From IMG/VR virus record IMGVR_UViG_2874945390_000004: a DNA stretch of 33,121 nt. The stretch is one strand, 5' to 3'. The DNA is from a virus (Duplodnaviria > Heunggongvirae > Uroviricota > Caudoviricetes). Shown here piece after piece: positions 4,185 through 33,121 of this stretch. Under the pieces are notes generated by a model. The model was not told where the DNA came from. It worked only from the letters and a program-made list of their open reading frames with translations, and did no database searches. The first letter of the stretch is position 1, and the number at the start of each line of letters is the position of its first letter. Position numbers and translations under genes: made by a program.

Positions 4185-6459
4185 AGCCTCCGGGCGTTTT
4201 GTCCCTCCGTCAGCATTTGCCGCAGGCACCGGTGAGACGTTTACCGGTGCTTATGCATGGAACGCGCCACGCGAGGCCGTCGGGCGAGAAAGACCTCTTA
4301 CACGTGACGAGATGCGTCAGGTGCAAGGTGTTTTATCCACGATAAATCGCCTGCCTTATTTTTTGCGCTCGCTGTTTACTTCACGCTATGACTACATCCG
4401 GCGCAATAAAAGCCCGGTGCACGGGTTTTATTTCCTCACATCCACTTTTCAGCGTCGTTTATGGCCGCGTATTGAGCGTGTGAATCAGCGCCATGAAATG
4501 AACACCGACGCGTCGTTGCTGTTTTTGGCAGAGCGTGACCACTATGCACGCCTGCCGGGAATGAATGACAAGGAGCTGAAAAAGTTTGCCGCCCGTATCT
4601 CATCGCAGCTTTTCATGATGTATGAGGAACTCTGCGATGCCTGGGTGGATGCGCATGGCGAAAAAGAATCGCTGTTTACGGATGAGGCGCAGGCTCACCT
4701 GTATGGTCATGTTGCTGGCGCTGCACGTGCTTTCAATATTCCCCCTCTCTACTGGAAAAAATACCGTAAAGGGCAGATGACCACGAGGCAGGCATATTCT
4801 GCCATTGCCCGTCTGTTTAACGATGAGTGGTGGACTCATCAGCTTAAAGGCCAGCGTATGCGTTGGCATGAGGCGTTACTGATTGCTGTCGGGGAGGTAA
4901 ATAAAGACCGTTCACCTTATGCCAGTAAACATGCTATTCGTGATGTGCGTGCGCGCCGCCAGGCAAATCTGGAATTTCTTAAATCGTGTGACCTTGAAAA
5001 CAGGGAAACCGGCGAACGCATCGACCTTATCAGTAAGGTGATGGGCAGTATTTCTAATCCAGAAATTCGCCGGATGGAGCTGATGAACACCATCGCCGGA
5101 ATTGAGCGTTACGCCGCCGCAGAGGGTGATGTGGGGATGTTTATCACGCTGACCGCGCCGTCAAAGTATCACCCGACACGTCAGGTCGGAAAAGGCGAAA
5201 GTAAAACCGTCCAGCTTAATCACGGCTGGAACCATGAGGCATTTAATCCAAAGGATGCGCAGCGTTATCTCTGCCGTATCTGGAGCCTGATGCGCACGGC
5301 ATTCAAGGATAATGATTTACAGGCCTACGGTTTGCGTGTCGTTGAGCCACACCACGACGGAACGCCGCACTGGCATATGATGCTTTTTTGTAATCCACGC
5401 CAGCGTAACCAGATTATTGAAATCATGCGTCGCTACGCGCTCAAAGAGGATGGAGACGAAAGAGGAGCTGCGCGAAACCGTTTTCAGGCAAAACACCTTA
5501 ACCGGGGCGGTGCTGCGGGATATATCGCGAAATACATTTCAAAAAACATCGACGGCTATGCACTGGATGGTCAGCTCGATAACGATACCGGCAGGCCGCT
5601 GAAAGACACTGCCGCGGCTGTTACCGCATGGGCGTCAACGTGGCGCATTCCGCAATTTAAAACGGTTGGCCTGCCGACAATGGGGGCTTACCGTGAACTA
5701 CGCAAATTGCCTCGCGGCGTCAGCATTGCTGATGAGTTTGACGAACGCGTCGAGGCTGCACGCGCTGCCGCAGACAGTGGCGATTTTGCGCTGTATATCA
5801 GCGCGCAGGGTGGGGCAAATGTCCCGCGCGATTGTCAGACTGTCAGGGTCGCCCGTAGCCCGTCGGATGACGTTAACGAGTACGAGGAAGAGGTCGAGAG
5901 AGTGGTCGGCATTTACGCGCCGCATCTCGGTGCGCGTCATATTCATATCACCAGAACGACGGACTGGCGCATTGTGCCGAAAGTACCGGTCGTTGAGCCT
6001 TTGACTTTAAAAAGCGGCATCGCCGCGCCTCGGAGTCCTGTCAATAACTGTGGAAAGCTCACCGGTGGTGATACTTCGTTACCGGCTCCCACACCTTCTG
6101 AGCACGCCGCAGCAGTGCTTAATCTGGTTGATGACGGTGTTATCGAATGGAGTGACCCGGAGGTCGTGAGGGCGCTCAGAGGTGCATTAAAACACGGTCG
6201 GAGAACGCCAGGTCGTCAGCAAAGAAACGGAAGCCCGTTAAAACCACATGAAATTGCACCATCGGCCAGACTGACCCGGTCGGAAAGAATGCAAATTACC
6301 CGTATCCGCGTTGACCTTGCTCAGAACGGTATCAGGCCTCAGCGATGGGAGCTTGAGGCGCTGGCGCGTGGAGCGACCGTAAATTATGACGGGAAAAAAT
6401 TCACGTATCCGGTCGCTGATGAGTGGCCGGGATTCTCAACAGTAATGGAGTGGACATAA
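4174..6459 (+). CDS. A: Replication initiation endonuclease A (rolling-circle initiator, 761 aa)
   Basis: Start placed at MAVKASGRFVPPSAF (ATG 4174), giving 761 aa as in P2 gpA; contains the HUH-type region (PHWHMMLF) and an AAGYIAKYISK motif. Confidence 0.95.
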   Translation: MAVKASGRFVPPSAFAAGTGETFTGAYAWNAPREAVGRERPLTRDEMRQVQGVLSTINRLPYFLRSLFTSRYDYIRRNKSPVHGFYFLTSTFQRRLWPRIERVNQRHEMNTDASLLFLAERDHYARLPGMNDKELKKFAARISSQLFMMYEELCDAWVDAHGEKESLFTDEAQAHLYGHVAGAARAFNIPPLYWKKYRKGQMTTRQAYSAIARLFNDEWWTHQLKGQRMRWHEALLIAVGEVNKDRSPYASKHAIRDVRARRQANLEFLKSCDLENRETGERIDLISKVMGSISNPEIRRMELMNTIAGIERYAAAEGDVGMFITLTAPSKYHPTRQVGKGESKTVQLNHGWNHEAFNPKDAQRYLCRIWSLMRTAFKDNDLQAYGLRVVEPHHDGTPHWHMMLFCNPRQRNQIIEIMRRYALKEDGDERGAARNRFQAKHLNRGGAAGYIAKYISKNIDGYALDGQLDNDTGRPLKDTAAAVTAWASTWRIPQFKTVGLPTMGAYRELRKLPRGVSIADEFDERVEAARAAADSGDFALYISAQGGANVPRDCQTVRVARSPSDDVNEYEEEVERVVGIYAPHLGARHIHITRTTDWRIVPKVPVVEPLTLKSGIAAPRSPVNNCGKLTGGDTSLPAPTPSEHAAAVLNLVDDGVIEWSDPEVVRALRGALKHGRRTPGRQQRNGSPLKPHEIAPSARLTRSERMQITRIRVDLAQNGIRPQRWELEALARGATVNYDGKKFTYPVADEWPGFSTVMEWT
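6025..6044 (+). other. Candidate replication origin / gpA nick-site region inside the 3' part of A
   Basis: The P2 origin is known to lie inside the A coding sequence; GCGCCTCGGAGTCCTGTCAA matches the nick-site region as I recall it. Exact sequence recall is uncertain. Confidence 0.3.
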
Positions 6460-6911
6460 TGGCAAAAATTCACGAGGTAAAGCTGCACGCGAAATATTTC
6501 GACCTTGTGCTGGAAGGAAAGAAACGTGCAGAGTTCCGGAAAAATGACCGTAATTATGAGCGCGGGGACACGTTGATTTTGCATGAATGGGTGCAGGGTG
6601 TGTATACGGGGCGAAAGGTTGAAGCCCGGATAACAGATGTTACTGACCTGTCAGACTGGCTGGAAGATTATGTCTTGCTAAGTATTGAGCGGCTTAATAC
6701 AGGCGCATGTGAGATTGTGAACTGGAAAGAACTTAGTGAGCGTGGTCTGGTATTCAGAATTAATCATGAAATTATGCATCAGCTCGGCCTTGCTGTTATG
6801 TATGAACCAGAGACGGGGATGTCTGGCGGGGCAATGGTTGCCACGGATGGAGCATGGAACTATTCAGATGAACAGATGGAGCGTGCACAGCAAAACGGGT
6901 GGCTTGGATAA
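6459..6911 (+). CDS. DUF3850 / ASCH-like domain protein (150 aa)
   Basis: Start overlaps the A stop (TAATG). N-terminus KIHEVKLHAKYFDLVLEGKKRAEFRKNDRNYERGDTLILHEW resembles the DUF3850 (ASCH-like) fold family as recalled. Confidence 0.55.
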   Translation: MAKIHEVKLHAKYFDLVLEGKKRAEFRKNDRNYERGDTLILHEWVQGVYTGRKVEARITDVTDLSDWLEDYVLLSIERLNTGACEIVNWKELSERGLVFRINHEIMHQLGLAVMYEPETGMSGGAMVATDGAWNYSDEQMERAQQNGWLG

Positions 6912-7117
6912 TGCACAGAATACCAGGCGAGATACCGCACCATAAAACTAAAAATATCAAGCTGATGGCTATTGTTCAGCGTTTACAGCGGATTATGGTC
7001 AACGAAAATCTGACGCCGGATGAGCTGGTCGGGTGTGCCGAAATAGTACGGGATAATTACGGGCAGCTTAACTATATCGGTCAGTCCAGAGTTGCGCCAC
7101 CACCACGAAGACGATAG
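6911..7117 (+). CDS. Hypothetical protein (68 aa)
   Basis: ATG overlapping the upstream stop (TAATG); no recognisable motif. Confidence 0.4.
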   Translation: MHRIPGEIPHHKTKNIKLMAIVQRLQRIMVNENLTPDELVGCAEIVRDNYGQLNYIGQSRVAPPPRRR

Positions 7118-7340
7118 AGAACGCCGCCAGTCGTGAAACTTGTTTTCAGGGCTGGCGGGGTTGAACAACGAGCGAAGCGAGGCGTTAGTTGACAGACATA
7201 TTTTTACTGCGTTGGTGCCGGTTTTTGACGGTTGAAAGGAGTTAGGTTGGAGAGCTAACAACTTACAAATATTCAAAAGTAAGCATCCTGTTGCTAACAT
7301 GAGGTCGATTTTTTATGTGGATGATGTAAAAAGGATAGCT

Positions 7341-8072
7341 ATGGATACTATAATCGCTTTTCTATCACTCGCTTTTTTCGCTGCTTTCTTCATCGGGTTA
7401 ATCAAGCCATCACTGGTGCGAATGCCAAACCGCAAACGTGCAAGTGCGGTTTATCTCGGAGGAGGTTTTGTATTGAGCATAATTGGTTCAATACTCTATC
7501 CAACAGAAAAAAGCCAGCCAGTTGCTAAAACTGAAACATCAACCGTTGCAGAACACAAAGTCCAAAAAACATTCGAATATGGTGAAAAAACACTCAAGGA
7601 ATATCGGAACGAGTCAAAGAAAACACGACACGATATTGTGAATAGTTACATTGATTTTAAGGAAGTTCCAGCCACCGCGTCAGATGCGTTTTATGCCTGC
7701 ATGAGTGAGTATACATTTACCAAAGATGATGAGTTGAAACTCGGTGATGTTCTTGGGTGGTGCTTTAATGATTATGAAAATGACCCGAATTCACTAAACA
7801 ATAAAATCAATCTTGATACATTTCAGAGTAATTTTAGTGGTTGGGATGGTTCTTATCGTCCATTGGAAAAACTAATTAAAGATAATATGAACGATGATTC
7901 ATCTTATAAACATGTGTCAACGGTATATCATCTGGTTTTGAATAAAGACCCGCATGCCATTGTGAAAACCACGTTTCGCGGAACTAATGCTTATGGAGGA
8001 GTGGTGAAACAGACGATTGCTGCGCGTGTTGATATAAAAACTGGTAAGGTGATATCAATCATAGATAATTGA
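7341..8072 (+). CDS. Uncharacterised membrane-anchored protein (about 243 aa), cargo island 1
   Basis: AT-rich ORF with an AAGGA ribosome-binding site before ATG 7341 (alternative upstream starts at 7299 and 7314). N-terminus has two hydrophobic helices followed by a soluble domain with no motif I recognise. Followed by a terminator. Confidence 0.6.
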   Translation: MDTIIAFLSLAFFAAFFIGLIKPSLVRMPNRKRASAVYLGGGFVLSIIGSILYPTEKSQPVAKTETSTVAEHKVQKTFEYGEKTLKEYRNESKKTRHDIVNSYIDFKEVPATASDAFYACMSEYTFTKDDELKLGDVLGWCFNDYENDPNSLNNKINLDTFQSNFSGWDGSYRPLEKLIKDNMNDDSSYKHVSTVYHLVLNKDPHAIVKTTFRGTNAYGGVVKQTIAARVDIKTGKVISIIDN

Positions 8073-8081
8073 TATCTTACA

Positions 8082-8122
8082 ATGCCGACGCTGAATATTT
8101 AATTGGGTGTCGGCATTTTTTT
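8082..8122 (+). terminator. Rho-independent terminator
   Basis: 8-bp stem ATGCCGAC/GTCGGCAT followed by a run of seven T. Confidence 0.7.
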
Positions 8123-8182
8123 GACTATTAGAGCGGCAGAACCGAGATTTGTTACGTATGAGATTAGCACTGCGAGAATGTT

Positions 8183-8965
8183 ATGAAAGTTATAAACCAA
8201 CTTAAGAAGTTTGATAAGAAAAGAACGCCAGATGATGGCCGTATTAGTTTGTTATATGAAAACGCGATTAAGTATGATATGTACTCTGTATATATTAAAG
8301 ATAAAAATGATACAGAATACCTCTTTGACTGTTTGGTTGATGGGAAGATAAAGGCTTTTAAATGGGATGATGAGGAGCGTAGATTTCATATAAGTTCATA
8401 CTTGGATATTTCTGAGCTTACGCCTGATTCTTTTTTTGGTGTTTATTACTACCGTGCGCATGAGTTGCGATTTAACTCTTTAAATGATTTAACCTTTTTA
8501 AGGGAGTTGTTTTTTAGAGTGAAGTCTAATTATGAAAATATAAAGTTTAGTCGTGAAAAATATATTTATCGACAGCAAAAAAAAGAAATAATTGATGTGA
8601 TGCTTGTTCTCTCAACGATTATAAGAATGTATCGTGAACGGGATGCTGAAACTGTGTTTAGTGAGTTTTCAATAATGGCCGAAGTCGCTGGTAGTTTATG
8701 GGTATACCATGACGATAAAAACAGGATGCGTAAAGAGCTTCGTTTATGCCTGAATTCTCTTGTTCAGAATGGAGATCTTGTTGAAACAAGTAGTGGATTT
8801 AGGCTAACAGGAAAGGCACTGAACACAATATCTACATTCAATAAAGATGAGTTGCGGTACAGAGAGAATTTGAGCACTCAGAAGAAAATGTTTTGGGCTA
8901 CTTTTTTCGCAGCAGTCGGCGGCGTAGGAAGTATGATTGCAGCTATAATAGGGCTTCTAAAATGA
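8183..8965 (+). CDS. Uncharacterised protein with C-terminal transmembrane anchor (260 aa), cargo island 1
   Basis: AT-rich ORF; C-terminal hydrophobic segment MFWATFFAAVGGVGSMIAAIIGLL; no recognisable catalytic motif. Separate transcription unit after the terminator. Confidence 0.6.
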   Translation: MKVINQLKKFDKKRTPDDGRISLLYENAIKYDMYSVYIKDKNDTEYLFDCLVDGKIKAFKWDDEERRFHISSYLDISELTPDSFFGVYYYRAHELRFNSLNDLTFLRELFFRVKSNYENIKFSREKYIYRQQKKEIIDVMLVLSTIIRMYRERDAETVFSEFSIMAEVAGSLWVYHDDKNRMRKELRLCLNSLVQNGDLVETSSGFRLTGKALNTISTFNKDELRYRENLSTQKKMFWATFFAAVGGVGSMIAAIIGLLK

Positions 8966-20983: not shown

Positions 20984-23302
20984 ATGAGCACAAAATTCAG
21001 AACCGTTATCACCACTGCCGGTGCAGCAAAGCTGGCAGCGGCAACCGCACCGGGAGGGCGGAAGGTCAACATTACCACGATGGCCGTCGGGGATGGCGGT
21101 GGTAAATTGCCTGTCCCGGATGCCGGACAGACCGGGCTTATCCACGAAGTCTGGCGACATACGCTGAACAAAATCAGCCAGGACAAACGAAACAGTAATT
21201 ATATTATCGCAGAGCTGGTTATTCCGCCGGAGGTGGGCGGTTTCTGGATGCGTGAGCTTGGCCTGTACGATGATGCGGGAACGTTAATTGCCGTGGCGAA
21301 CATGGCCGAAAGTTATAAGCCAGCTCTTGCCGAAGGCTCAGGGCGTTCGCAGACCTGTCGCATGGTCATCATCGTCAGCAGTGTGGCCTCGGTGGAGCTG
21401 ACCATTGACACCACAACGGTGATGGCGACACAGGATTACGTTGATGACAAAATTGCAGAGCACGAACAGTCACGACGTCACCCGGACGCCTCGCTGACCG
21501 CAAAAGGTTTTACTCAGTTAAGCAGTGCGACCAACAGCACGTCTGAAACACTGGCCGCAACGCCGAAAGCGGTAAAGGCCGCCTATGACCTTGCTAACGG
21601 GAAATATACCGCACAGGACGCTACCACAGCGCGAAAAGGTCTTGTCCAGCTCAGTAGTGCCACCAACAGCACGTCTGAAACGCTTGCGGCAACGCCAAAG
21701 GCGGTTAAGACAGCGTATGACCTTGCTAACGGGAAATACACTGCACAGGACGCCACTACAGCGCGAAAAGGTCTTGTCCAGCTCAGTAGCGCCACCAACA
21801 GCGATTCTGAAACGCTTGCGGCAACACCAAAGGCGGTTAAGACAGCGTATGACCTTGCTAACGGGAAATACACTGCACAGGATGCCACCACAGCGCGAAA
21901 AGGTCTTGTCCAGCTAAGTAGTGCCATCAACAGCGATTCTGAAACGCTGGCCGCAACGCCAAAAGCAGTGAAGTCTGCCTATGACAATGCTGAAAAACGT
22001 CTTCAGAAAGATCAGAACGGTGCGGATATTCCGGGAAAGGATACCTTCACGAAAAATATCGGTGCCTGTCGTGCTTATAGCGGCGCTTTGAGCACTGAAG
22101 CCGGAAACTGGACAACCGCTCAGTTTATTGAATGGCTGGATTCCCGTGGTGCATTTAATCATCCGTACTGGATGTGCAAAGGCTCCTGGTCATATGCAAA
22201 TAACAAAATCATTACGGATACCGGATGTGGTGATATCCACCTGGCTGGTTGTGTCGTCGAGGTCATGGGAACAAAATCTGCAATCACTATTCGAGTGACC
22301 ACGCCGACAACATCAAGCGGTGGCGGTACAACCAGCGCGCAATTCACTTACATTAATCATGGGGACGGCTACTCCCCCGGCTGGCGTCGTGACTGGAATC
22401 GTCAGGGCGACGCAATGACCGGAACGATTAATCAGGATGGCGGAAGCCAGAATGCCTATATGTCTACGGCCTTATGTTCAGGCACCAGAGGCGGCAAAAA
22501 ATATCTCAGAAAGTTTCGTGGTGGAGAAGGAGACACTATCTGGCATGAAACAGTGCAGGGCGGGGTAATTCGCTGGGCGACAGGAAACTATGACGCTCAG
22601 GAAGAATTATCACTCAGCTCTGCTTATGGTCTTCGTTCAAGAGGTGAAATTACATCACTCAGTGCTAATGGTCTGCGCATTGCTTATGGCAATTATGGAT
22701 TCTTTATCAGGAATGATGGTGGCAGCACATATTTAATGCTGACGGCCTCTGGTGATAAATTTGGGACATGGAACGGTTTAAGGCCGCTGACTATCAATAA
22801 CGCTAATGGCGGAGTGTCAATGGGGCATGGCCTGAGTGTTACTGGTGATATTGCCTCAAGTACCAAAGTACGTGCCGGTAGCGGGAAAAAGTTCACGGTC
22901 AGCAGCAGCAATACATCCACGAAGGAAGCCGCATTCAATTTGTGGGGAAACTCAAGTCGTCCTGTGGTGGCTGAATTAGGTGATGATGCAGGCTGGCATT
23001 TTTACAGTCAGAGAAATACAGATAACAGCATCACTTTTGCTGTTAACGGGCAGGTATCACCATCTAACTATAGTAATTTTGATTCACGCTATGTCCGGGA
23101 TATCCGGCTTGGTGGTGCTGCCACATACAAACCTGCGAACAATGGCATGACATGGACACATCAGGCACCGTCCGGGTGTGTATATTCCGGCATTATTGTT
23201 CAGGATACCGGCTCAAACTCTGCCGATAACATTGGTGGCATATATTACAGACCGGTGCAGAAATACATTAACGGGACTTGGTATAACGTGGCGCAGGTAT
23301 AA
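20984..23302 (+). CDS. H: Tail fibre protein H (772 aa) with an expanded internal tandem repeat and a divergent C-terminal receptor-binding region
   Basis: N-terminal about 170 aa match P2 gpH (MSTKFRTVITTAGAAKLAAATAPGG...), followed by repeats of QLSSATNSTSETLAATPKAVKxAYDLANGKYTAQDATTARKGLV and a lower-GC C-terminal domain. Longer than the 669 aa I recall for P2 gpH. Confidence 0.9.
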   Translation: MSTKFRTVITTAGAAKLAAATAPGGRKVNITTMAVGDGGGKLPVPDAGQTGLIHEVWRHTLNKISQDKRNSNYIIAELVIPPEVGGFWMRELGLYDDAGTLIAVANMAESYKPALAEGSGRSQTCRMVIIVSSVASVELTIDTTTVMATQDYVDDKIAEHEQSRRHPDASLTAKGFTQLSSATNSTSETLAATPKAVKAAYDLANGKYTAQDATTARKGLVQLSSATNSTSETLAATPKAVKTAYDLANGKYTAQDATTARKGLVQLSSATNSDSETLAATPKAVKTAYDLANGKYTAQDATTARKGLVQLSSAINSDSETLAATPKAVKSAYDNAEKRLQKDQNGADIPGKDTFTKNIGACRAYSGALSTEAGNWTTAQFIEWLDSRGAFNHPYWMCKGSWSYANNKIITDTGCGDIHLAGCVVEVMGTKSAITIRVTTPTTSSGGGTTSAQFTYINHGDGYSPGWRRDWNRQGDAMTGTINQDGGSQNAYMSTALCSGTRGGKKYLRKFRGGEGDTIWHETVQGGVIRWATGNYDAQEELSLSSAYGLRSRGEITSLSANGLRIAYGNYGFFIRNDGGSTYLMLTASGDKFGTWNGLRPLTINNANGGVSMGHGLSVTGDIASSTKVRAGSGKKFTVSSSNTSTKEAAFNLWGNSSRPVVAELGDDAGWHFYSQRNTDNSITFAVNGQVSPSNYSNFDSRYVRDIRLGGAATYKPANNGMTWTHQAPSGCVYSGIIVQDTGSNSADNIGGIYYRPVQKYINGTWYNVAQV
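21515..21985 (+). repeat. Tandem repeat of 132 bp (44 codons), about 3.5 copies, inside H
   Basis: Near-identical units start at 21515, 21647, 21779 and 21911 (partial). The repeat also produces the spurious mirrored ORFs on both strands at 21583..21930. Confidence 0.9.
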
Positions 23303-23305
23303 TTT

Positions 23306-23833
23306 ATGCAGCATTTGATAAATATAACGGCAGGTAATCCAAAAACGGTTGAACAATATCAATTGACAAAGGACTTTGATGTTGTCTGGTTTTTTTCAGA
23401 AGATGGTAAGAACTGGTACGAAGAACAAAAGTATTTTGCTGATGACACGATAAAAATAGCGTACGACAAAGATAATATTATCCGCTATGTGGAAAAGGAT
23501 GTGACAGCTATCAGACCGGATGGATTAAGTGTTGTTGAAGTGCCGGATATTACTGCTAACCGACGGGCGGACATTTCAGGGAACTGGATGTTTAAGGACG
23601 GTACAGTGATTAAACGAATTTATACGGCAGAGGAATTGCAGCAGCAGGCAGAAAATCGGAAAGCCAGACTTCTTGCAGATGCTGAATCCGTGATTTTGCC
23701 GCTGGAGCGCGCTGTCAGGCTGAATATGGCAACAGATGAGGAGCGCAGCCTACTGGAAGCATGGGAACGCTACAGCGTTCTGGTCAGTCGTGTGGATCCT
23801 GCAAATCCTGAATGGCCGGAAATGCCGCAATAA
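23306..23833 (+). CDS. G: Tail fibre assembly chaperone G (175 aa)
   Basis: 175-aa ORF directly after H; C-terminal region typical of tail-fibre assembly proteins ([25 protein letters not shown]). Confidence 0.85.
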
Positions 23834-23947
23834 GTTGTATGAGCTCTGGTGTGAGCTTACATATCTATGGCACAGAGTAAAGCCTAATCTGAGAGTCCGC
23901 TCTGTGCCAGAAGTAGACGCACAAGGTGGGCGTGTCTTTTTCTTAAG

Positions 23948-25365
23948 CTACATCGGGCTCTTATATGGGGAATGAGAGTTTTTGAAACGCGGTTCTTCAT
24001 GCTTCGGACTGTAAATTCTTGCATGATTATCTATCACAACTTTACTTCCAAGAATATCTCGAGCTTCTCCTAACGACCACACAGTAGAAAGATCATTAGT
24101 CAAATTTCGATAGAGAGCACGAAACCCCTTGGGTTTTTTAAGATCATATAAGAAATCAGGAACTTTAACTTTAAAATTAAAGGTCGGTAGTTTCGGAAGG
24201 GAATTAATAGCCGCAACAGTATTGTATACATGTACAAGCTTAGTTACAGGTACACCTTGTCTAGTCTTGAGCCCATACTTAGTTCGAATATAATCTGATT
24301 CTTTCGATACTTCAGTAAGCAATGCTCTTACTGACTTATTAGCTTGAGGCAATTCATTTTCATCAAACAAGCGCTTTATTTCTCGCATTTTCTCACGGGC
24401 CCTTACAAATTCGTTGTTGTCCCTTATGTTATAAGCAGCTTCAACAATACAACTTGGATCACCAGTTTCTTTTGCGAGCCATGCCGAAAATAAAGGAAGC
24501 GAAGTTGCTGTTGCTACAGCTTTACCACCAGAATGAATATCAATGAGATCATGACTTAACGAAGTGGAAAAGTTTTCTACAATATGTTTAGCATAGTCAA
24601 AACCATACTGACAGTTTTGGCTTAAATATGTCTGTTGATACGCCTGACGTAATGGATATAAAAAAGTATCTGCTTGAAGGTACTTAGCTGTGAGAGAATA
24701 AAATACTGCCCGATTAGCCAGCCATACAAGCGAAGCCACGAATGCTTTGATTGCATCTGATGCTTCACCAGCAGATGTGCCATCCCCCATTTTGCTCCGG
24801 GAACTTTGTACCCCTTGCGAATAGGGTTGCCAAATCGATCGAGAAGTTCAACATCGCCATTTGTTCTATTACCAGACTCAGCAGCATCACGCAGTTCTGA
24901 AAAAATGGCAGCAGCAATGTTACCATATTTTTCAAACTCCTTACCTCCATCAGATAAGTTCTTCAGTGTTAGATGATAAACACTTGAACTAATGTCCCAT
25001 GTACATATGATATGTGTCTGAAGAAGTTCAATTAGTTTTTTAAAATCGTCATTAACAAATGTTCCACCACGAATTTTAGGTTTCAATGCATCAGATATTT
25101 TTTTTTGCTTCACTTTCAATTTCATCCAACCCATATTGTGCTTTATCAAGAAATAATATCTCTCTGAAACTTGAAATCCTACTCCCACGGTACTCTGGAA
25201 TATAATCATCAACCGCGATAACGTGATCATAGAACAAAATAGACTGTATATAGTTCTCAAATGCTATTATGTCTGTATCTACTGAGTCCTTCGATCTTGT
25301 TTTTACTTTCCCTCGATTCTTTGGACTGCAGTTAGAGTTGAATTATCAATCAGTGCGTATGTCAT
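23948..25365 (-). CDS. Large uncharacterised leftward cargo gene (about 472 aa if three single-base frame breaks are repaired), P2 Z/fun position
   Basis: AT-rich. ATG at 25365 with an AAGGA ribosome-binding site opens MTYALIDNSTLTAVQRIEGK. Coding-like translation continues through three frame changes at homopolymer runs (G run near 25311..25313, A9 run 25093..25101, G5 run 24788..24792), joining the ORF-track pieces 24622..25260 and 23948..24790. No known domain recognised. Confidence 0.55.
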
Positions 25366-25682
25366 TTACATTCCTTAAATAAAAAACATTAATGGTTGCT
25401 CCAAAAATACTAGCAACCTTATTTCAGTGAAGTCAATTTTTTAACATTAATCATTTACACACGCTTGAAAAGTGATCGCTGAAAATGGCATTTACTACAT
25501 TATCAAAGTTCCCATCGAAGATAATCGAAATTTTTCCCGGTAGCAGATATCGTGAGATTTAACGCTTTTCGCTCATAGCAGGCTGTCAGATTTGATAGCG
25601 TTTGGGCTATGTAAACTGTCAGTCGGAAAATGAGTGTGTACAAATCAGGACATGCGGGCGAATTGCCCGCATTTTCTTTATC

Positions 25683-25702
25683 TGTTGTTTCATCCACTGA
25701 CC
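25683..25702 (+). promoter_or_regulatory. Candidate late-promoter activator site upstream of FI
   Basis: TGTTGTTTCATCCACTGACC about 90 bp upstream of the FI ATG; shares the TGTTGT-N-ACC pattern with the O and V upstream elements. Confidence 0.35.
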
Positions 25703-25775
25703 AGCCAGGTCAAATAGCGTCTCATGCACTGCCCAACAGAAAATAGTTGCACCCATTAACCACGGAGTTAAACGG

Positions 25776-26606
25776 ATGAGTGACTATCATCACGGCGTGC
25801 AGGTGCTGGAGATTAACGACGGCACCCGCGTCATTTCCACCGTATCCACTGCCATTGTCGGCATGGTCTGCACGGCCAGCGATGCGGATGCGGAAACCTT
25901 CCCCCTCAATAAACCGGTGCTGATTACCAATGTGCAGAGCGCAATTGCAAAGGCCGGTAAAAAAGGCACGCTGGCGGCATCGTTGCAGGCCATCGCCGAC
26001 CAGTCAAAACCGGTCACCGTTGTCGTGCGTGTGGAAGACGGCACCGGCGACGACGAGGAAACGAAACTCGCGCAGACCGTTTCCAATATCATCGGCACCA
26101 CCGACGAAAACGGTCAGTACACCGGACTGAAAGCCCTGCTGGCGGCGGAGTCGGTAACCGGTGTTAAACCGCGTATTCTCGGCGTGCCGGGACTGGACAC
26201 CAAAGAGGTGGCTGTTGCACTGGCATCAGTCTGTCAGAAGCTGCGCGCTTTCGGGTATATCAGCGCATGGGGCTGTAAGACCGTTTCCGAGGTGAAAGCC
26301 TACCGTCAGAATTTCAGCCAGCGTGAGCTGATGGTCATCTGGCCGGATTTCCTCGCATGGGATACGGTCGCCAGTACCACCGCCACCGCGTATGCCACCG
26401 CCCGTGCGCTGGGTCTGCGCGCTAAAATCGACACCGGCGAGGGTAAACAGGGAGAAGACACCGAGTCGAAAATCTCCGTGGTCTGCACCTATTTCCGGCT
26501 GACGATGGACGGTAAGGAGCTGGTCGAAATCGACACCATCAACATGATTGAGAAGGTGAACGGCGTCGACCGGCTGGAGCAACACCGCCGCAATATCGGC
26601 CTGTAA
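25776..26606 (+). CDS. FI: Tail sheath FI N-terminal portion fused in frame to the tail tube FII C-terminus (276 aa; deletion derivative)
   Basis: The first ~230 aa match P2 sheath gpFI (MSDYHHGVQVLEINDGTRVISTVSTAIVGMV...ARALGLRAKID). The sequence then continues as TGEGKQGEDTESKISVVCTYFRLTMDGKELVEIDTINMIEKVNGVDRLEQHRRNIGL, which I recall as the C-terminus of P2 tube protein FII. E follows directly and no separate FII gene is present. Confidence 0.75.
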   Translation: MSDYHHGVQVLEINDGTRVISTVSTAIVGMVCTASDADAETFPLNKPVLITNVQSAIAKAGKKGTLAASLQAIADQSKPVTVVVRVEDGTGDDEETKLAQTVSNIIGTTDENGQYTGLKALLAAESVTGVKPRILGVPGLDTKEVAVALASVCQKLRAFGYISAWGCKTVSEVKAYRQNFSQRELMVIWPDFLAWDTVASTTATAYATARALGLRAKIDTGEGKQGEDTESKISVVCTYFRLTMDGKELVEIDTINMIEKVNGVDRLEQHRRNIGL

Positions 26607-26662
26607 TTTTCATCCGGTCAGCCTGGCTGACCGGTTAACCCCGATTCAGAAGTGAGAAAACC

Positions 26663-26938
26663 ATGAACAAAGAAAATGTGATTACCCTGGACAATCCGGT
26701 CAAGCGTGGTGAGCAGGTTATCGAACAGGTCACGCTGATGAAACCCAGTGCGGGGACGCTGCGCGGTGTCAGTCTGGCTGCGGTCGCAAACTCAGAAGTC
26801 GATGCACTGATTAAGGTGCTGCCGCGCATGACGGCACCGATGCTGACCGAGCAGGAAGTCGCCGCGCTGGAACTGCCTGACCTTGTGGCGCTGGCCGGTA
26901 AGGTGGTCGGTTTTTTGTCGCCGAACTCGGTGCAGTGA
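26663..26938 (+). CDS. E: Tail assembly chaperone E (91 aa)
   Basis: MNKENVITLDNPVKRGEQVIEQVTLMKPSAG...; 91 aa as in P2 gpE. Confidence 0.85.
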   Translation: MNKENVITLDNPVKRGEQVIEQVTLMKPSAGTLRGVSLAAVANSEVDALIKVLPRMTAPMLTEQEVAALELPDLVALAGKVVGFLSPNSVQ

Positions 26939-27090
26939 CGCTTCCGAAAAATCTGTCGGTCGATGACCTGATGGCGGATGTGGCAGTGATATTTCACTGG
27001 CCGCCATCAGAACTGTATCCCATGAGCCTGACCGAACTCATCACATGGCGCGAAAAGGCGCTCAGGCGAAGCGGAAACACGAATGAGTAA
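26663..27090 (+). CDS. E': E+E' tail assembly chaperone made by programmed -1 ribosomal frameshift (142 aa)
   Basis: Slippery sequence G GTT TTT TG at 26910..26917 near the end of E. The -1 frame stays open to TAA at 27088..27090, overlapping the T start, giving 142 aa as for P2 E+E'. Confidence 0.7.
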
Positions 27091-29530
27091 CAATGTAAAA
27101 TTACAGGTATTGCTCAGGGCTGTTGACCAGGCGTCCCGCCCGTTTAAATCCATCCGCACAGCGAGTAAGTTGCTGTCGGGGGATATCCGGGAAACACAAA
27201 AATCACTGCGCGAGCTGAACGGTCACGCATCCCGTATTGAGGGATTCCGCAAGACCAGTGCACAGCTCGCCGTGACTGGTCATGCACTTGAAAAGGCACG
27301 GCAGGAGGCCGAAGCCCTTGCCACACAGTTTAAAAACACCGAACGCCCGACCCGTGCTCAGGCGAAAGTGCTGGAATCCGCAAAGCGTGCGGCGGAGGAC
27401 TTACAGGCGAAATATAACCGCCTGACAGATTCCGTTAAACGCCAGCAGCGGGAACTGGCCGCTGTGGGAATTAATACCCGCAATCTTGCACATGATGAGC
27501 AGGGACTGAAAAACCGTATCAGTGAAACCACCGCCCAGCTTAACCGGCAGCGTGACGCGCTGGCGCGTGTCAGTGCGCAACAGGCAAAACTTAACGCAGT
27601 CAAACAGCGTTATCAGGCCGGAAAGGAACTGGCCGGAAATATGGCCTCAGTGGGCGCTGCCGGTGTGGGGATTGCTGCTGCGGGAACGATAGCCGGAGTT
27701 AAGCTGCTGATGCCAGGTTATGAGTTTGCGCAGAAAAACTCAGAATTGCAGGCTGTGCTCGGTGTGGCAAAAGACTCCGCCGAAATGGCTGCACTCCGCA
27801 AGCAGGCGCGCCAGCTCGGTGACAACACCGCCGCCTCAGCGGATGATGCGGCCGGTGCACAGATTATCATTGCGAAAGCGGGTGGGGATGTTGATGCCAT
27901 TCAGGCGGCAACGCCGGTCACGCTGAATATGGCGCTGGCGAACCGCCGCACAATGGAAGAAAACGCCGCCCTGCTGATGGGGATGAAATCCGCCTTTCAG
28001 CTTTCAAACGATAAGGTCGCTCATATCGGGGATGTTCTCTCCATGACGATGAACAAAACCGCCGCTGATTTTGACGGCATGAGCGATGCGCTGACCTATG
28101 CCGCACCAGTGGCAAAAAATGCCGGTGTCAGCATTGAAGAAACCGCCGCAATGGTCGGGGCGCTGCATGATGCAAAAATCACAGGCTCAATGGCGGGGAC
28201 GGGAAGCCGTGCCGTGTTAAGTCGCCTGCAGGCACCGACTGGAAAAGCATGGGATGCACTCAAAGAGCTTGGCGTGAAAACCTCAGACAGTAAGGGAAAC
28301 ACCCGACCAGTATTTACCATTCTGAAAGAAATGCAGGCCAGCTTTGAGAAAAACCGGCTCGGTACTGCCCAGCAGGCCGAATACATGAAAACCATTTTCG
28401 GGGAGGAGGCCAGCTCAGCCGCCGCTGTGCTGATGACTGCCGCGTCAACCGGAAAGCTGGACAAACTGACCGCTGCGTTTAAAGCCTCAGACGGGAAGAC
28501 CGCAGAGCTGGTAAATATCATGCAGGACAACCTCGGCGGTGACTTTAAGGAGTTTCAGTCCGCTTATGAGGCGGTGGGGACAGACCTGTTTGACCAGCAG
28601 GAAGGCGCGCTACGTAAGCTCACGCAGACGGCCACAAAGTATGTGTTAAAACTCGACGGCTGGGTACAGAAAAACAAATCACTGGCGTCAACCATTGGCC
28701 TCATTGCCGGTGGCGCGCTGGCGCTGACTGGCATCATCGGTGCAATTGGTCTTGTAGCCTGGCCGGTTATCACCGGCATCAATGCCATCATCGCGGCAGC
28801 AGGCGCAATGGGGGCAATCTTCACGACGGTTGGTAGTGCCGTTATGACGGCCATCGGGGCGATTAGCTGGCCGGTTGTGGCTGTGGTGGCCGCCATTGTC
28901 GCCGGGGCGTTGCTTATCCGTAAATACTGGGAGCCTGTCAGCGCATTCTTTGGCGGTGTGGTTGAAGGGCTGAAAGCGGCATTTGCGCCGGTGGGGGAGC
29001 TGTTCACGCCACTGAAACCGGTGTTTGACTGGCTGGGCGAAAAGTTACAGGCTGCGTGGCAGTGGTTTAAAAACCTGATTGCCCCGGTCAAAGCCACCCA
29101 GGACACCCTGAACCGTTGCCGTGACACGGGCGTCATGTTCGGGCAGGCACTGGCTGACGCGCTGATGCTGCCGCTTAATGCGTTCAACAAATTGCGCAGC
29201 GGCATTGACTGGGTACTGGAAAAGCTCGGGGTCATCAACAAAGAGTCAGACACACTTGACCAGACCGCCGCCAGAACTCATGCCGCCACGTATGGCACCG
29301 GTGGTTATATTCCGGCGACCAGCTCTTATGCAGGCTATCAGGCTTATCAGCCGGTCACGGCACCGGCTGGCCGCTCTTATGTGGACCAGAGTAAAAACGA
29401 ATATCACATCAGCCTGACGGGTGGTACTGCGCCGGGGACACAGCTTGACCGCCAGTTACAGGATGCGCTCGAAAAATACGAGCGGGATAAACGTGCGCGT
29501 GCCCGTGCCAGCATGATGCATGACGGTTAA
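27083..29530 (+). CDS. T: Tail tape measure protein T (815 aa)
   Basis: 815-aa ORF with coiled-coil-rich N-terminal half and glycine/alanine-rich hydrophobic segments; size equals P2 gpT. Confidence 0.9.
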   Translation: MSNNVKLQVLLRAVDQASRPFKSIRTASKLLSGDIRETQKSLRELNGHASRIEGFRKTSAQLAVTGHALEKARQEAEALATQFKNTERPTRAQAKVLESAKRAAEDLQAKYNRLTDSVKRQQRELAAVGINTRNLAHDEQGLKNRISETTAQLNRQRDALARVSAQQAKLNAVKQRYQAGKELAGNMASVGAAGVGIAAAGTIAGVKLLMPGYEFAQKNSELQAVLGVAKDSAEMAALRKQARQLGDNTAASADDAAGAQIIIAKAGGDVDAIQAATPVTLNMALANRRTMEENAALLMGMKSAFQLSNDKVAHIGDVLSMTMNKTAADFDGMSDALTYAAPVAKNAGVSIEETAAMVGALHDAKITGSMAGTGSRAVLSRLQAPTGKAWDALKELGVKTSDSKGNTRPVFTILKEMQASFEKNRLGTAQQAEYMKTIFGEEASSAAAVLMTAASTGKLDKLTAAFKASDGKTAELVNIMQDNLGGDFKEFQSAYEAVGTDLFDQQEGALRKLTQTATKYVLKLDGWVQKNKSLASTIGLIAGGALALTGIIGAIGLVAWPVITGINAIIAAAGAMGAIFTTVGSAVMTAIGAISWPVVAVVAAIVAGALLIRKYWEPVSAFFGGVVEGLKAAFAPVGELFTPLKPVFDWLGEKLQAAWQWFKNLIAPVKATQDTLNRCRDTGVMFGQALADALMLPLNAFNKLRSGIDWVLEKLGVINKESDTLDQTAARTHAATYGTGGYIPATSSYAGYQAYQPVTAPAGRSYVDQSKNEYHISLTGGTAPGTQLDRQLQDALEKYERDKRARARASMMHDG

Positions 29531-31588: not shown

Positions 31589-31615
31589 AAAAAATAAGCC
31601 CGTGTAAGGGAGATT
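31589..31615. repeat. attR core: 27-bp direct repeat identical to 489..515; also the 3' terminator end of cyaR
   Basis: Exact 27-bp identity with 489..515; contains the stem-loop and U-tail of the cyaR terminator on the minus strand. Confidence 0.8.
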
Positions 31616-31675
31616 ACACAGGCTAAGGAGGTGGTTCCTGGTACAGCTAGCATTTTATGGGTTATGTTTTTCAGC
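31589..31675 (-). ncRNA. cyaR: CyaR (RyeE) Hfq-dependent small RNA, about 87 nt
   Basis: The minus-strand sequence GCTGAAAAACATAACCCATAAAATGCTAGCTGTACCAGGAACCACCTCCTTAGCCTGTGTAATCTCCCTTACACGGGCTTATTTTTT matches CyaR as recalled, including the CCUCCUU region and intrinsic terminator. It lies between yegQ and ogr as in E. coli. Confidence 0.75.
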
Positions 31676-31707
31676 GAAACGGATGATAACCTTAATAAAT
31701 GCAGCTG

Positions 31708-31759: not shown

Positions 31760-33121
31760 TCACTTACCGTGGGGGTTACGCGTGGTTTCCCCGGAGAAAT
31801 TACGCATTAGCAGCGCGTAATTTAGCTCAAGATCCTGCGGGACCGGGAGCCACACAGTATAACCATCGCCTGGTGCGACCGGCATAGCTTCGCCTTTGGC
31901 GTTTTCCATGTGCTCAAGGGTAAAGTTAATGTTGCCTTGCGGCGTCATCAGCTCAAGACTGTCGCCAACGGAGAATTTATTTTTCACCGCTACCGCTGCG
32001 AGGTCCCCCTTGCGCTCACCGGTAAACTCACCAACAAACTGCTGGCGGTCAGAAACTGAATAACCGTATTCGTAGTTCTGATAATCGTCGTGAGTATGAC
32101 GACGCAGGAAACCTTCGGTATAGCCACGATGCGCCAGACCTTCCAGAGTTTCCAGCAGGCTGGTATCGAACGGTTTTCCCGCAGCGGCGTCATCGATAGC
32201 TTTGCGGTAAACCTGTGCGGTGCGTGCGCAATAGTAGAAAGATTTGGTACGACCTTCGATTTTCAGCGAATGCACGCCCATTTTGGTCAGGCGTTCTACA
32301 TGGGCGATGGCGCGCAGATCTTTCGAGTTCATGATGTAAGTGCCGTGCTCATCTTCAAACGCGGTCATATACTCGCCCGGACGCTGGGCCTCTTCGATCA
32401 TAAACACTTTGTCGGTTGGCGCGCCGATACCCAGCGTCGGCTCAACATTTTGCACCGGAATCGGCTCGTACTTGTGTACGATGTTGCCAACGTCATCTTC
32501 TTTCCCTTCCTGGACGTTGTACTCCCAGCGGCAGGCGTTGGTGCAGGTACCCTGGTTCGGATCGCGCTTGTTGATATAGCCAGAGAGCAGGCAGCGACCG
32601 GAGTAGGCCATGCACAGTGCGCCGTGAACGAAGATCTCGATCTCCATATCCGGCACCTGATTGCGGATCTCTTCAATCTCTTCAAGCGACAGCTCGCGAG
32701 AGAGGATCACGCGGGTCAGGCCCATTTGCTGCCAGAATTTCACCGTCGCCCAGTTTACGGCGTTAGCCTGCACCGAGAGGTGGATCGGCATTTCAGGGAA
32801 GTGCTCACGCACCAGCATAATCAGCCCTGGATCGGACATAATCAGCGCATCCGGCCCCATTTCCACCACCGGTTTCAGGTCACGGATAAAGGTTTTCAGC
32901 TTGGCGTTGTGCGGTGCAATGTTGACCACGACATAAAACTTTTTCCCCAGCGCGTGGGCTTCATTGATGCCGAGCTGAAGATTTTCGTGGTTGAATTCGT
33001 TGTTGCGCACACGTAGGGAGTAACGCGGCTGGCCCGCATAAACAGCATCTGCGCCATAAGCGAAAGCGTAACGCATATTTTTCAGCGTTCCCGCCGGGGA
33101 AAGGAGTTCCGGTTTAAACAT
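31760..33121 (-). CDS. yegQ: Peptidase U32-family protein YegQ/TrhP (453 aa), host gene
   Basis: Full 453-aa ORF MFKPELLSPAGTLKNMRYAFAYGADAVYAGQPRY... matching E. coli YegQ as recalled; the start codon is at the window end. Confidence 0.85.
   Translation of the reverse strand: MFKPELLSPAGTLKNMRYAFAYGADAVYAGQPRYSLRVRNNEFNHENLQLGINEAHALGKKFYVVVNIAPHNAKLKTFIRDLKPVVEMGPDALIMSDPGLIMLVREHFPEMPIHLSVQANAVNWATVKFWQQMGLTRVILSRELSLEEIEEIRNQVPDMEIEIFVHGALCMAYSGRCLLSGYINKRDPNQGTCTNACRWEYNVQEGKEDDVGNIVHKYEPIPVQNVEPTLGIGAPTDKVFMIEEAQRPGEYMTAFEDEHGTYIMNSKDLRAIAHVERLTKMGVHSLKIEGRTKSFYYCARTAQVYRKAIDDAAAGKPFDTSLLETLEGLAHRGYTEGFLRRHTHDDYQNYEYGYSVSDRQQFVGEFTGERKGDLAAVAVKNKFSVGDSLELMTPQGNINFTLEHMENAKGEAMPVAPGDGYTVWLPVPQDLELNYALLMRNFSGETTRNPHGK

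What the first reader, a model, noticed from the sequence alone, without database searches (positions are those of the whole stretch)
23834..25775. Leftward-transcribed large cargo gene at the Z/fun position, opposite to the late operons
Between G and FI, where P2 carries the exclusion gene Z/fun, a strongly AT-rich gene of about 472 codons runs on the opposite strand to all surrounding late genes, with about 410 bp of non-coding DNA before FI. The reconstructed protein (MTYALIDNSTLTAVQRIEGKVKTRSKDSVDTDIIAFENYIQSILFYDHVIAVDDY...KWGDGTSAGEAS...) contains a GTSAG (GxSxG-like) element but no family I can assign. It is a candidate defence or exclusion gene, possibly a Fun(Z) relative or a new one.
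Basis: partly seen in the sequence, partly recalled or inferred. Interest (0 to 1): 0.72.

Follow-up and report, generated by a model that had tools for sequence, protein, structure and literature searches.

The report
Orphan cargo gene in P2 defence hotspot
A P2-like prophage carries, where phage P2 keeps its exclusion gene, a 472-codon gene of an uncharacterised, widely transferred protein family that is a plausible but untested new anti-phage gene; in this sequence three single-base slips break its reading frame.

Summary
Between tail genes G and FI lies a low-GC (37.8%) leftward gene, ATG 25365 to stop 23948, with 410 bp before FI. In the window three single-base homopolymer length changes break it. 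Once repaired it is identical to E. coli WP_000220361.1 (472 aa, "hypothetical protein"), which is intact at the same site in 7 of 5,426 complete E. coli genomes.

It is not related to P2 Fun(Z). The GTSAG element is not conserved. It matches no Pfam, NCBIfam or PADLOC model and no PDB sequence or fold.

The family is compact: about 325 clusters among 1.84 billion representatives, one architecture of about 460-475 aa. It is under purifying selection (dN/dS 0.06-0.17) and scattered across distant phyla. It travels as a solo 1.65-kb cassette in prophage hotspots, conjugative elements, an integron-like array and islands beside Hachiman, Lamassu-like, Mks and OLD genes.

One divergent clade always (8 of 8 loci) has a minimal GGDEF-type cyclase gene overlapping its start. 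This hints at a nucleotide-linked effector.

Best reading: a new single-protein exclusion or abortive-infection candidate with unknown mechanism. Nothing has been shown experimentally.

The parts
23948..25365 (-). Cargo CDS, 472 codons plus stop once repaired. Equals WP_000220361.1 and is frame-broken in the window.
   Evidence: identical to L001:6411-7829 apart from three 1-nt homopolymer indels. Full-length match to PHROG 13435, function unknown.
25309..25313 (-). Frame break 1: G4->G3 run in the gene's orientation, at codon ~18-19.
25098..25106 (-). Frame break 2: A8->A9 run, at codons ~87-90.
   Evidence: A RefSeq Shigella ORF of 379 aa starts right after this tract.
24783..24789 (-). Frame break 3: G6->G5 run, at codon ~193.
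25407..25436 (-). Sigma-70-like promoter of the cargo gene: TTGACT, 18-nt spacer, TG-TAGTAT.
   Evidence: This is only a consensus match; the region had 4 such sites against 5.6 expected from shuffles. The promoter region is conserved with the gene in Lonsdalea, Pantoea and Serratia copies.
25371..25376 (-). Shine-Dalgarno-like AAGGAA, 5 nt before the ATG.
   Evidence: Read directly. GAGG/AAGGA is conserved in homologues.
23915..25568 (.). The inserted cassette (~1,654 bp), defined as the stretch with no similarity to phage P2.
   Evidence: P2 similarity ends at 23914 on the G side and resumes at 25569 on the FI side. About 235 nt of 5' region and the 3' hairpin travel with the gene in other hosts.
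23869..23908 (.). 9-bp perfect inverted repeat (GGCACAGAG...CTCTGTGCC) in the P2-conserved stretch after G. Probably the shared terminator of the converging G and cargo transcripts.
   Evidence: Read. It lies inside the P2-similar flank. The function is inferred.
25569..25775 (+). P2-conserved FI upstream region (97.6% identical to P2) with a terminator-like hairpin at 25652-25672. This is not part of the cargo.
   Evidence: That it holds the late promoter of the FI operon comes from general knowledge of P2 and was not tested.

Best explanation
A self-contained, horizontally mobile 1.65-kb cassette occupies the Z/fun hotspot of a P2-like prophage integrated between yegR and cyaR/yegQ. It carries one 472-aa soluble, basic protein of an unannotated family and its own sigma-70-type promoter, which points against the late operons. 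I infer that it is expressed in the lysogen.

Most likely it is a single-protein anti-phage exclusion or abortive-infection module of a new family.

Inferred mechanism, at low confidence: the N-terminal Rossmann-like alpha/beta domain binds or hydrolyses a nucleotide or nucleic-acid ligand. This domain holds the conserved cluster D7 and G19/D32/Y55/R63 (invariant), and N8, R16, E37, D53, D54 (>=90%). The helical alpha/beta remainder couples that event to growth arrest or phage inhibition. It holds invariant W215, P238, R240, P291 and R324, >=90%-conserved R219 and Y223, and a nearly invariant C-terminal W-K-x-P-M.

The nucleotide link rests on one divergent clade, in which the gene is always translationally coupled to a minimal GGDEF-type cyclase.

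In this window the gene is frame-broken. Most probably these are homopolymer sequencing errors; less probably they reflect real decay.
For: Location: the G-FI gap is a known P2 defence hotspot that holds fun and several validated PD systems. Other E. coli P2-like prophages carry different cargo between the same flanks. 1,017 genomes share the flanks and only 7 carry this gene.

Cassette anatomy: low GC, its own promoter and SD, opposite strand, no P2 similarity at 23915-25568.

A real, constrained protein: dN/dS is 0.06-0.17. The gene keeps 37-43% GC in hosts whose loci are 52-59% GC.

Patchy spread with high identity across phyla: 72% identity to Desulfotalea and Nitrospira copies. It occurs in 43 of 185,579 species genomes.

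Mobile or defence contexts:
- inside a conjugative element
- on an integrase/relaxase island with an OLD-type ATPase
- in an integron-like cassette array
- next to MksBEF
- next to HEPN/TA/SMC genes
- next to complete Hachiman HamA/HamB at Pseudomonas locus L042 (E 1e-250 and below), with BLASTP-clustered homologues of both genes at L045 and L059
- next to a DUF4365-TPR-PIN giant protein (5 Pseudomonas loci) and a LmuB-like ATPase (3 of them)

No neighbour is conserved family-wide, so it works alone.

Nucleotide link: a 120-140-aa minimal GGDEF-like ORF that retains DIDxF and SDE[FY] ends on or overlaps the start codon. This holds in 8 of 8 loci of one clade, which keeps all family invariants.

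Against: There is no experiment, and no similarity to any validated defence protein: PADLOC v2 gives 0 hits.

The PIN acidic tetrad is not fully conserved; D124 varies.

Many homologues sit alone among housekeeping genes (Acinetobacter, Methylorubrum, Rhodopseudomonas).

Hotspot cargo is not always defence.

The cyclase partner is absent from the E. coli cassette and from about 95% of genome loci.

The promoter is only a consensus match, found at a density no higher than in shuffled sequence.

Newer DefenseFinder or PADLOC models could not be queried.
Confidence: 0.5

Rival explanations
1. In this particular prophage the gene is a genuine pseudogene. The three frameshifts are real mutations in a decaying, defective prophage, so nothing functional is encoded here.
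For: The window also carries an 883-bp in-frame FI::FII deletion. It has homopolymer frameshifts in terminase P (11955), at the end of holin (16109) and in V (19154).

RefSeq Shigella entries hold a 379-aa ORF that starts just after the same A-tract, and a 157-aa truncated form.

Three of the seven indels fall in the 1.4-kb gene (P ~0.005 by run count).
Against: All 7 single-base indels are in homopolymers, and 6 of 7 are G/C-run contractions. That is the signature of long-read consensus error.

The 1.9-kb cargo interval has 0 substitutions against L001. The whole stretch 23777-29430 has 1 substitution against L073/L074.

Three independent real frameshifts without any substitution would be very unusual. 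One would suffice to kill the gene.

The indels hit the longest runs in the region (C6, T8).
Confidence: 0.3
2. The gene is cargo unrelated to phage defence. It is a lysogenic-conversion or signalling protein that changes host physiology, for example by binding or degrading c-di-GMP-type messengers.

For: Many homologues sit among housekeeping genes. P2 hotspots also carry non-defence cargo.
Confidence: 0.15
3. It is a counter-defence or pro-phage factor, for example an enzyme that destroys host immune nucleotides, used by the P2-like phage itself.
For: A Rossmann-like domain with a conserved acidic cluster could be a phosphodiesterase. The gene is phage-borne.
Against: The gene is oriented against all lytic operons and has its own constitutive-type promoter.

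tblastn finds no copy in any of 50,697 deposited phage genomes. Most copies are in non-phage contexts.
Confidence: 0.07
4. It is a Fun(Z) homologue, or a GxSxG serine hydrolase or lipase.
For: It sits at the same locus as fun. One GTSAG string occurs at residues 196-200.
Against: BLASTP against the P2 Z/fun-position ORF gives E = 0.19, so there is no homology.

The GTSAG loop is gapped and variable in the 51-member alignment. Neither the Ser nor the second Gly is conserved.

No alpha/beta-hydrolase hit appears in Pfam or the fold searches.
Confidence: 0.02

Closest known systems
P2 Fun(Z) and the PD systems of the P2 'fun' hotspot (PD-T4-9/CmdTAC, PD-T4-5, PD-T4-10, PD-lambda-5; Vassallo 2022)
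   Same: Same genomic slot between G and FI of P2-like prophages. Small, AT-rich cargo exchanged between otherwise near-identical phages and presumed to be expressed in the lysogen.
   Different: No sequence similarity to the P2 Z/fun-position ORF or to any PADLOC model, which include the PD systems. It is transcribed opposite to the late genes, whereas the P2 ORF at this slot is co-directional with them. No phenotype is known.
Two-gene nucleotide-signalling defence systems with a minimal palm-domain cyclase (Panoptes mCpol-OptE, type II Panoptes CARF-TM; also CBASS and type III CRISPR-CARF effectors)
   Same: In one clade of the family, a 120-140-aa minimal GGDEF-type palm-domain ORF is translationally coupled to the 472-aa protein. 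That protein's N-terminus is a Rossmann-like domain, the general fold class of CARF/SAVED sensors (PMC12657218).
   Different: The small ORF matches GGDEF rather than the Pfam mCpol model. The large protein is soluble, with no TM segment, and has no detectable CARF, SAVED or HEPN similarity. The E. coli/P2 version has no cyclase at all. No nucleotide has been identified.
PIN-domain (VapC-like) and HAD-type phosphoesterases
PHROG 13435
   Same: Full-length match at E = 1e-293. This is the family's existing catalogue entry.
   Different: It carries no functional annotation.

Membership tests
P2 Fun(Z) | Sequence homology to the P2 Z/fun protein | tested here: not met
   BLASTP against the 299-aa ORF at the Z/fun position of a P2 genome (L008:1820-2719): best E = 0.19.
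P2 Fun(Z) | Location between G and FI of a P2-like phage | tested here: met
P2 Fun(Z) | Blocks phage T5 in lysogens | not testable with these tools
   Needs plaque assays.
Known anti-phage defence families (PADLOC-DB v2.0.0, including PD-T4/PD-lambda/PD-T7, PDC candidates, Abi families) | Match to a family HMM | tested here: not met
   0 families at E <= 1. DefenseFinder and post-2023 models were not available.
Pfam / NCBIfam curated families | Match to any model | tested here: not met
   0 hits for the E. coli protein. No family is shared by more than 2 of 51 diverse members.
PIN-domain nucleases | PIN fold | tested here: inconclusive
PIN-domain nucleases | Four conserved acidic active-site residues | tested here: not met
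   D7 and E37 are conserved. No conserved acidic residue occupies the strand-3 or strand-4 positions; D124 varies to N/Q/H/E/K.
alpha/beta-hydrolase (GxSxG) enzymes | Conserved G-x-S-x-G nucleophile elbow | tested here: not met
   Residues 196-200 lie in a gapped, variable loop in alignment A2.
HEPN RNases (Csm6-like) | Conserved R-x4-6-H motif and HEPN fold | tested here: not met
   No His is conserved across A2. Csm6 appears only at Foldseek E 0.35-0.76 with TM ~0.1.
Cyclase-effector signalling systems (CBASS/Panoptes-like) | Adjacent nucleotide cyclase gene | tested here: not met
   For the window and other solo copies: no cyclase in the cassette, and tblastn with the small GGDEF ORFs is negative. 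For the Bacteroidota-type clade the feature is met in 8 of 8 loci.
Cyclase-effector signalling systems (CBASS/Panoptes-like) | Effector binds the cyclase product | not testable with these tools
   Needs biochemistry.
Insertion sequence / self-mobile element | Terminal inverted repeats, recognisable transposase, multiple copies | tested here: not met
   No terminal inverted repeats at the cassette ends. No transposase domain. Single copy per genome.

The most novel reading that the evidence does not exclude
The family is a new soluble effector with a Rossmann-like sensor domain that reads a GGDEF-made nucleotide.

In Bacteroidota-type hosts it brings its own minimal GGDEF cyclase. From general knowledge, not tested here, those hosts largely lack c-di-GMP signalling.

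In Proteobacteria and the P2 prophage it works solo. There it would monitor a host-made nucleotide pool and fire when a phage perturbs that pool, a Panoptes-like guard built on a previously unseen fold.
Probability: 0.15. Interest if true: 0.8.

Novelty: new variant of a known kind. Interest (0 to 1): 0.5.

Why it matters
If the gene protects lysogens, it adds a new single-protein immune family with no detectable relative among solved structures. It is ready to clone: 1.65 kb including its promoter. It is already known to move between phages, conjugative elements, integron arrays and defence islands across many phyla.

The conserved coupling to a minimal GGDEF cyclase in one clade gives a concrete, testable entry point to its ligand. 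It would also extend the cyclase-plus-effector immune logic (CBASS, type III CRISPR, Panoptes) to GGDEF enzymes.

If the gene shows no phenotype, it is simply one more unannotated hotspot passenger.

Tried and rejected
- Fun(Z) homology: rejected.
- GxSxG hydrolase: rejected.
- HEPN R-x4-6-H motif: the C-terminal R460-x4-H465 is not conserved outside close relatives.
- PD-(D/E)xK reading of 'DDYK': K56 is Ile in the E. coli clade.
- Transposon or IS reading: no terminal inverted repeats.
- ncRNA in the 5' region: Rfam finds nothing. Small ORFs there are no longer than 6 codons (read).
- Domain-fusion relatives that could annotate the family: none. All 325 clusters, plus a second search seeded from the most divergent member, show the same ~460-475-aa architecture with no Pfam domains.
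- PDB sequence searches with full-length and N-domain profiles: only noise.
- Foldseek against afdb50: the library was not installed.
A1 was used instead.
- Literature: no hit for the accession, locus tags, PHROG id or N-terminal peptide. Nothing in the DefensePredictor supplements. The NAR 2026 P2/P4 paper has no held supplements.
- A per-locus count of defence neighbours could not be made.

Full report
**What is in the window**

The window is a complete P2-like prophage. It lies between yegR (1-318) and the CyaR sRNA gene (31592-31677, Rfam 100.7 bits) followed by yegQ (31760-33121). G ends at 23833 and FI begins at 25776.

Between them, on the minus strand, an ATG at 25365 preceded by AAGGAA opens a frame that ends at TAG 23950-23948. 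As given, the frame is broken into pieces.

Alignment with an intact E. coli copy shows exactly three differences in the 1,942-bp interval. All are one-base length changes in homopolymers and none is a substitution. In the gene's orientation they are G4->G3, A8->A9 and G6->G5.

The repaired product is 472 aa and identical to WP_000220361.1, annotated 'hypothetical protein'. In other E. coli genomes it sits between the tail fibre assembly gene and the tail sheath gene.

The gene has 37.8% GC against 55.6% for the late genes. The protein is soluble (no TM segment), 53 kDa, pI 8.6.

**Are the frame breaks real?**

Against the best complete-genome relative (97.7% identical overall), the window has seven single-base indels, all in homopolymers. 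Six are contractions of G/C runs. They lie at:
- 9279, intergenic
- 11955, terminase P, about codon 55
- 16109, the last codons of holin
- 19154, the C-terminus of V
- three sites in the cargo gene

There is also an 883-bp deletion that fuses FI residues ~1-219 in frame to the last ~57 residues of FII.

Against two IMG/VR P2-like contigs, the stretch 23777-29430 differs by one substitution, the three indels and the deletion.

Three independent frameshifts without a single substitution point to consensus error in homopolymers. The cargo gene also holds the longest runs in the region. I put about 70% on artefact.

Real decay is not excluded. The FI::FII deletion is not a homopolymer error. RefSeq Shigella records contain a 379-aa ORF that starts just after the same A-tract, and a 157-aa truncation.

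**The cassette**

Similarity to phage P2 ends at 23914 and resumes at 25569. The insert is therefore about 1,654 bp: the gene plus 203 bp of its own 5' region.

A sigma-70-like site (TTGACT, 18-nt spacer, TG-TAGTAT, 25436-25407) lies 40 bp before the ATG. It is only a consensus match, and such sites are no denser here than in shuffled sequence.

The gene, about 235 nt upstream and a 3' hairpin are conserved together in Lonsdalea, Pantoea and Serratia, in unrelated surroundings. There are no terminal inverted repeats and no Rfam match.

The remaining 207 bp before FI are 97.6% identical to P2 and belong to the phage.

Of 5,426 complete E. coli genomes, 1,017 share the flanks and only 7 carry this cargo. 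The others have DUF4145, 'lysogenic conversion', SMEK and other genes there. By tblastn, none of 50,697 deposited phage genomes encodes it. Ten IMG/VR contigs do; three were confirmed as P2-like with the gene at the same slot.

**What the protein is not**

- It has no Pfam, NCBIfam or PADLOC match at E <= 1. Its only catalogue entry is PHROG 13435, function unknown.
- Scanning 51 diverse members against Pfam gives nothing consistent.
- It is unrelated to the ORF at the P2 Z/fun position (E = 0.19).
- The GTSAG string lies in a variable, gapped loop.
- PDB sequence searches return only noise.
- Foldseek finds nothing at E <= 1e-3.

**The family**

A profile search of 1.84 billion representatives finds only 325 clusters. 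All are full-length proteins of about 455-485 aa or fragments, with no domain fusions. A second search seeded from the most divergent member adds an alphaproteobacterial branch of about 459 aa, again without annotation.

Close relatives of exactly 472 aa occur in:
- Enterobacterales, Acinetobacter, Halomonas, Vibrio and Psychrobacter
- Desulfotalea and Nitrospira, at 72% identity
- Cyanobium, at 60% identity

More distant members occur in Pseudomonas, Verrucomicrobiota, Chloroflexota, Clostridia, Bacteroidota and Armatimonadota. Only 43 of 185,579 species genomes carry it.

dN/dS is 0.06-0.17. The gene keeps 37-43% GC whatever the host locus. This combination indicates a strongly constrained gene spread by horizontal transfer.

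Across members of 21-69% identity:
- invariant residues are G19, D32, Y55, R63, W123, L132, W215, P238, R240, P291 and R324
- conserved at >=90% are D7, N8, R16, E37, D53, D54, F67, G101, S128, R219, Y223, G433 and the C-terminal P-M

The extreme C-terminus (W/F-K-x-P-M-COOH) is unusually conserved, yet it is modelled as disordered.

**Context**

No neighbour is conserved across the family, so the protein works alone. The surroundings are often mobile or conflict-related:
- MksBEF in Desulfotalea
- IS elements in Ca. Tenderia
- a HEPN-Toprim protein, TA modules and a CTD1/MComp1/SMC system in Pectobacterium
- an integrase/relaxase island with an OLD-type ATPase in Pantoea
- an integron-like cassette array in Vibrio vulnificus
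- the cargo region of a conjugative element in Serratia
- ParDE in Halomonas
- complete Hachiman (HamA/HamB, E down to 1e-276) at Pseudomonas locus L042, with BLASTP-clustered homologues of both genes at L045 and L059
- a 1,321-aa DUF4365-TPR-PIN protein in five Pseudomonas loci, three of which also have a LmuB-like ATPase

Other copies sit alone among housekeeping genes. The association with defence is therefore suggestive, not quantified.

**A mechanistic lead**

In two Bacteroidota genomes, five metagenome contigs and one Logan contig, a 120-140-aa ORF ends on or overlaps the start codon of the family gene. That is every locus of one clade for which upstream DNA is available, 8 of 8.

These small ORFs are 36-77% identical to one another. 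They match the GGDEF domain from profile position 37 onward (Pfam 2.8e-7; PDB GGDEF domains 1e-5; TIGR00254 1e-8). They keep the DIDxF metal site and an SDE[FY] version of GGDEF. The large proteins of this clade keep all family invariants.

A minimal palm-domain cyclase coupled to an effector with a Rossmann-like sensor is the layout of Panoptes and related systems (PMC12657218).

I therefore infer that the family binds or processes a nucleotide-type ligand. The E. coli/P2 cassette has no cyclase, so its ligand, if any, must come from the host or the infecting phage. This step is inference only.

**Verdict**

The most likely reading is a new single-protein exclusion or abortive-infection module with a possibly nucleotide-linked mechanism (about 0.5). 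Nothing has been shown experimentally, and in this sequence the gene is frame-broken.

Noticed in passing
window 25776-26606 (junction 26425-26432): The 'FI' ORF is an in-frame FI(1-~219)::FII(C-terminal ~57 aa) fusion. An 883-bp deletion with 8-bp microhomology created it. The tail sheath C-terminus and most of the tail tube gene are missing, so the prophage as given cannot build tails, unless this is an assembly collapse.
   Followed up: yes
window 9279, 11955, 16109, 19154: Four further single-base contractions of G/C runs relative to relatives. They frameshift terminase P at about codon 55, alter the last codons of holin, and alter the C-terminus of baseplate protein V. The pattern matches the three breaks in the cargo gene.
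   Followed up: partly
window 6983-8965: The other P2 hotspot (between A and Q, the old/tin position) is also AT-rich (35-37% GC). It holds ORFs of 105 aa (minus strand), 257 aa and 260 aa with no Pfam or PADLOC match. These are further unannotated cargo candidates. The relative NZ_CP027366 has an 'ATP-dependent nuclease' gene there instead.
   Followed up: partly
window 6423-6911: A 162-aa ORF downstream of the replication gene A, overlapping its 3' end (6423-6459), has ASCH/DUF3850 and DUF7415 domains.
   Followed up: no
window 31592-31677 (-): The CyaR/RyeE sRNA gene (Rfam 100.7 bits) lies immediately outside the prophage, next to yegQ. The prophage occupies the yegR-cyaR/yegQ site where E. 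coli K-12 keeps the ogrK remnant (the K-12 point is from general knowledge).
   Followed up: no
L056:9633-9998, L057:2797-3159, L067:204-563, L068:255-611, L069:636-995, L070:2648-2998, L072:2651-3010, L083:1273-1695: A minimal GGDEF-like ORF (120-140 aa; DIDxF and SDE[FY] retained; N-terminal ~35 residues of the canonical domain absent) is translationally coupled to the family gene in every locus of one clade. It may be an undescribed cyclase-effector pair.
   Followed up: partly
L009:3552-8008 (P. aeruminosa megaplasmid NZ_CP095921): A distant family member is split into an N-terminal 166-aa piece and a C-terminal piece. The insertion between them carries a 417-aa ORF whose sequence resembles a reverse transcriptase (judged by eye, not domain-tested) and transposase-like ORFs.
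   Followed up: no
L036:10001-11415 (Pantoea sp. Eser, stink-bug symbiont): This 80%-identical copy is 1 nt short and has 10 in-frame stops. It is a pseudogene in a symbiont genome.
   Followed up: no
window 21400-21990 (gene H): The tail fibre gene H (772 aa, against 669 aa for P2 H, the latter figure recalled from memory) contains several tandem ~130-bp repeats. They encode the motif '...LSSATNS(T/D)SETLAATPKAVK.AYDLANGKYTAQDATTARKGLVQ'.
   Followed up: no
L013:9420-9520 vs window 23860-23947: In Pantoea sp. Cy-640 the family gene lies on an integrase/relaxase island. Even so, it is followed by the same ~80 bp, including the GGCACAGAG...CTCTGTGCC hairpin, that follow gene G in P2-like phages. 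This suggests the cassette was picked up from, or delivered to, a P2-type hotspot.
   Followed up: no
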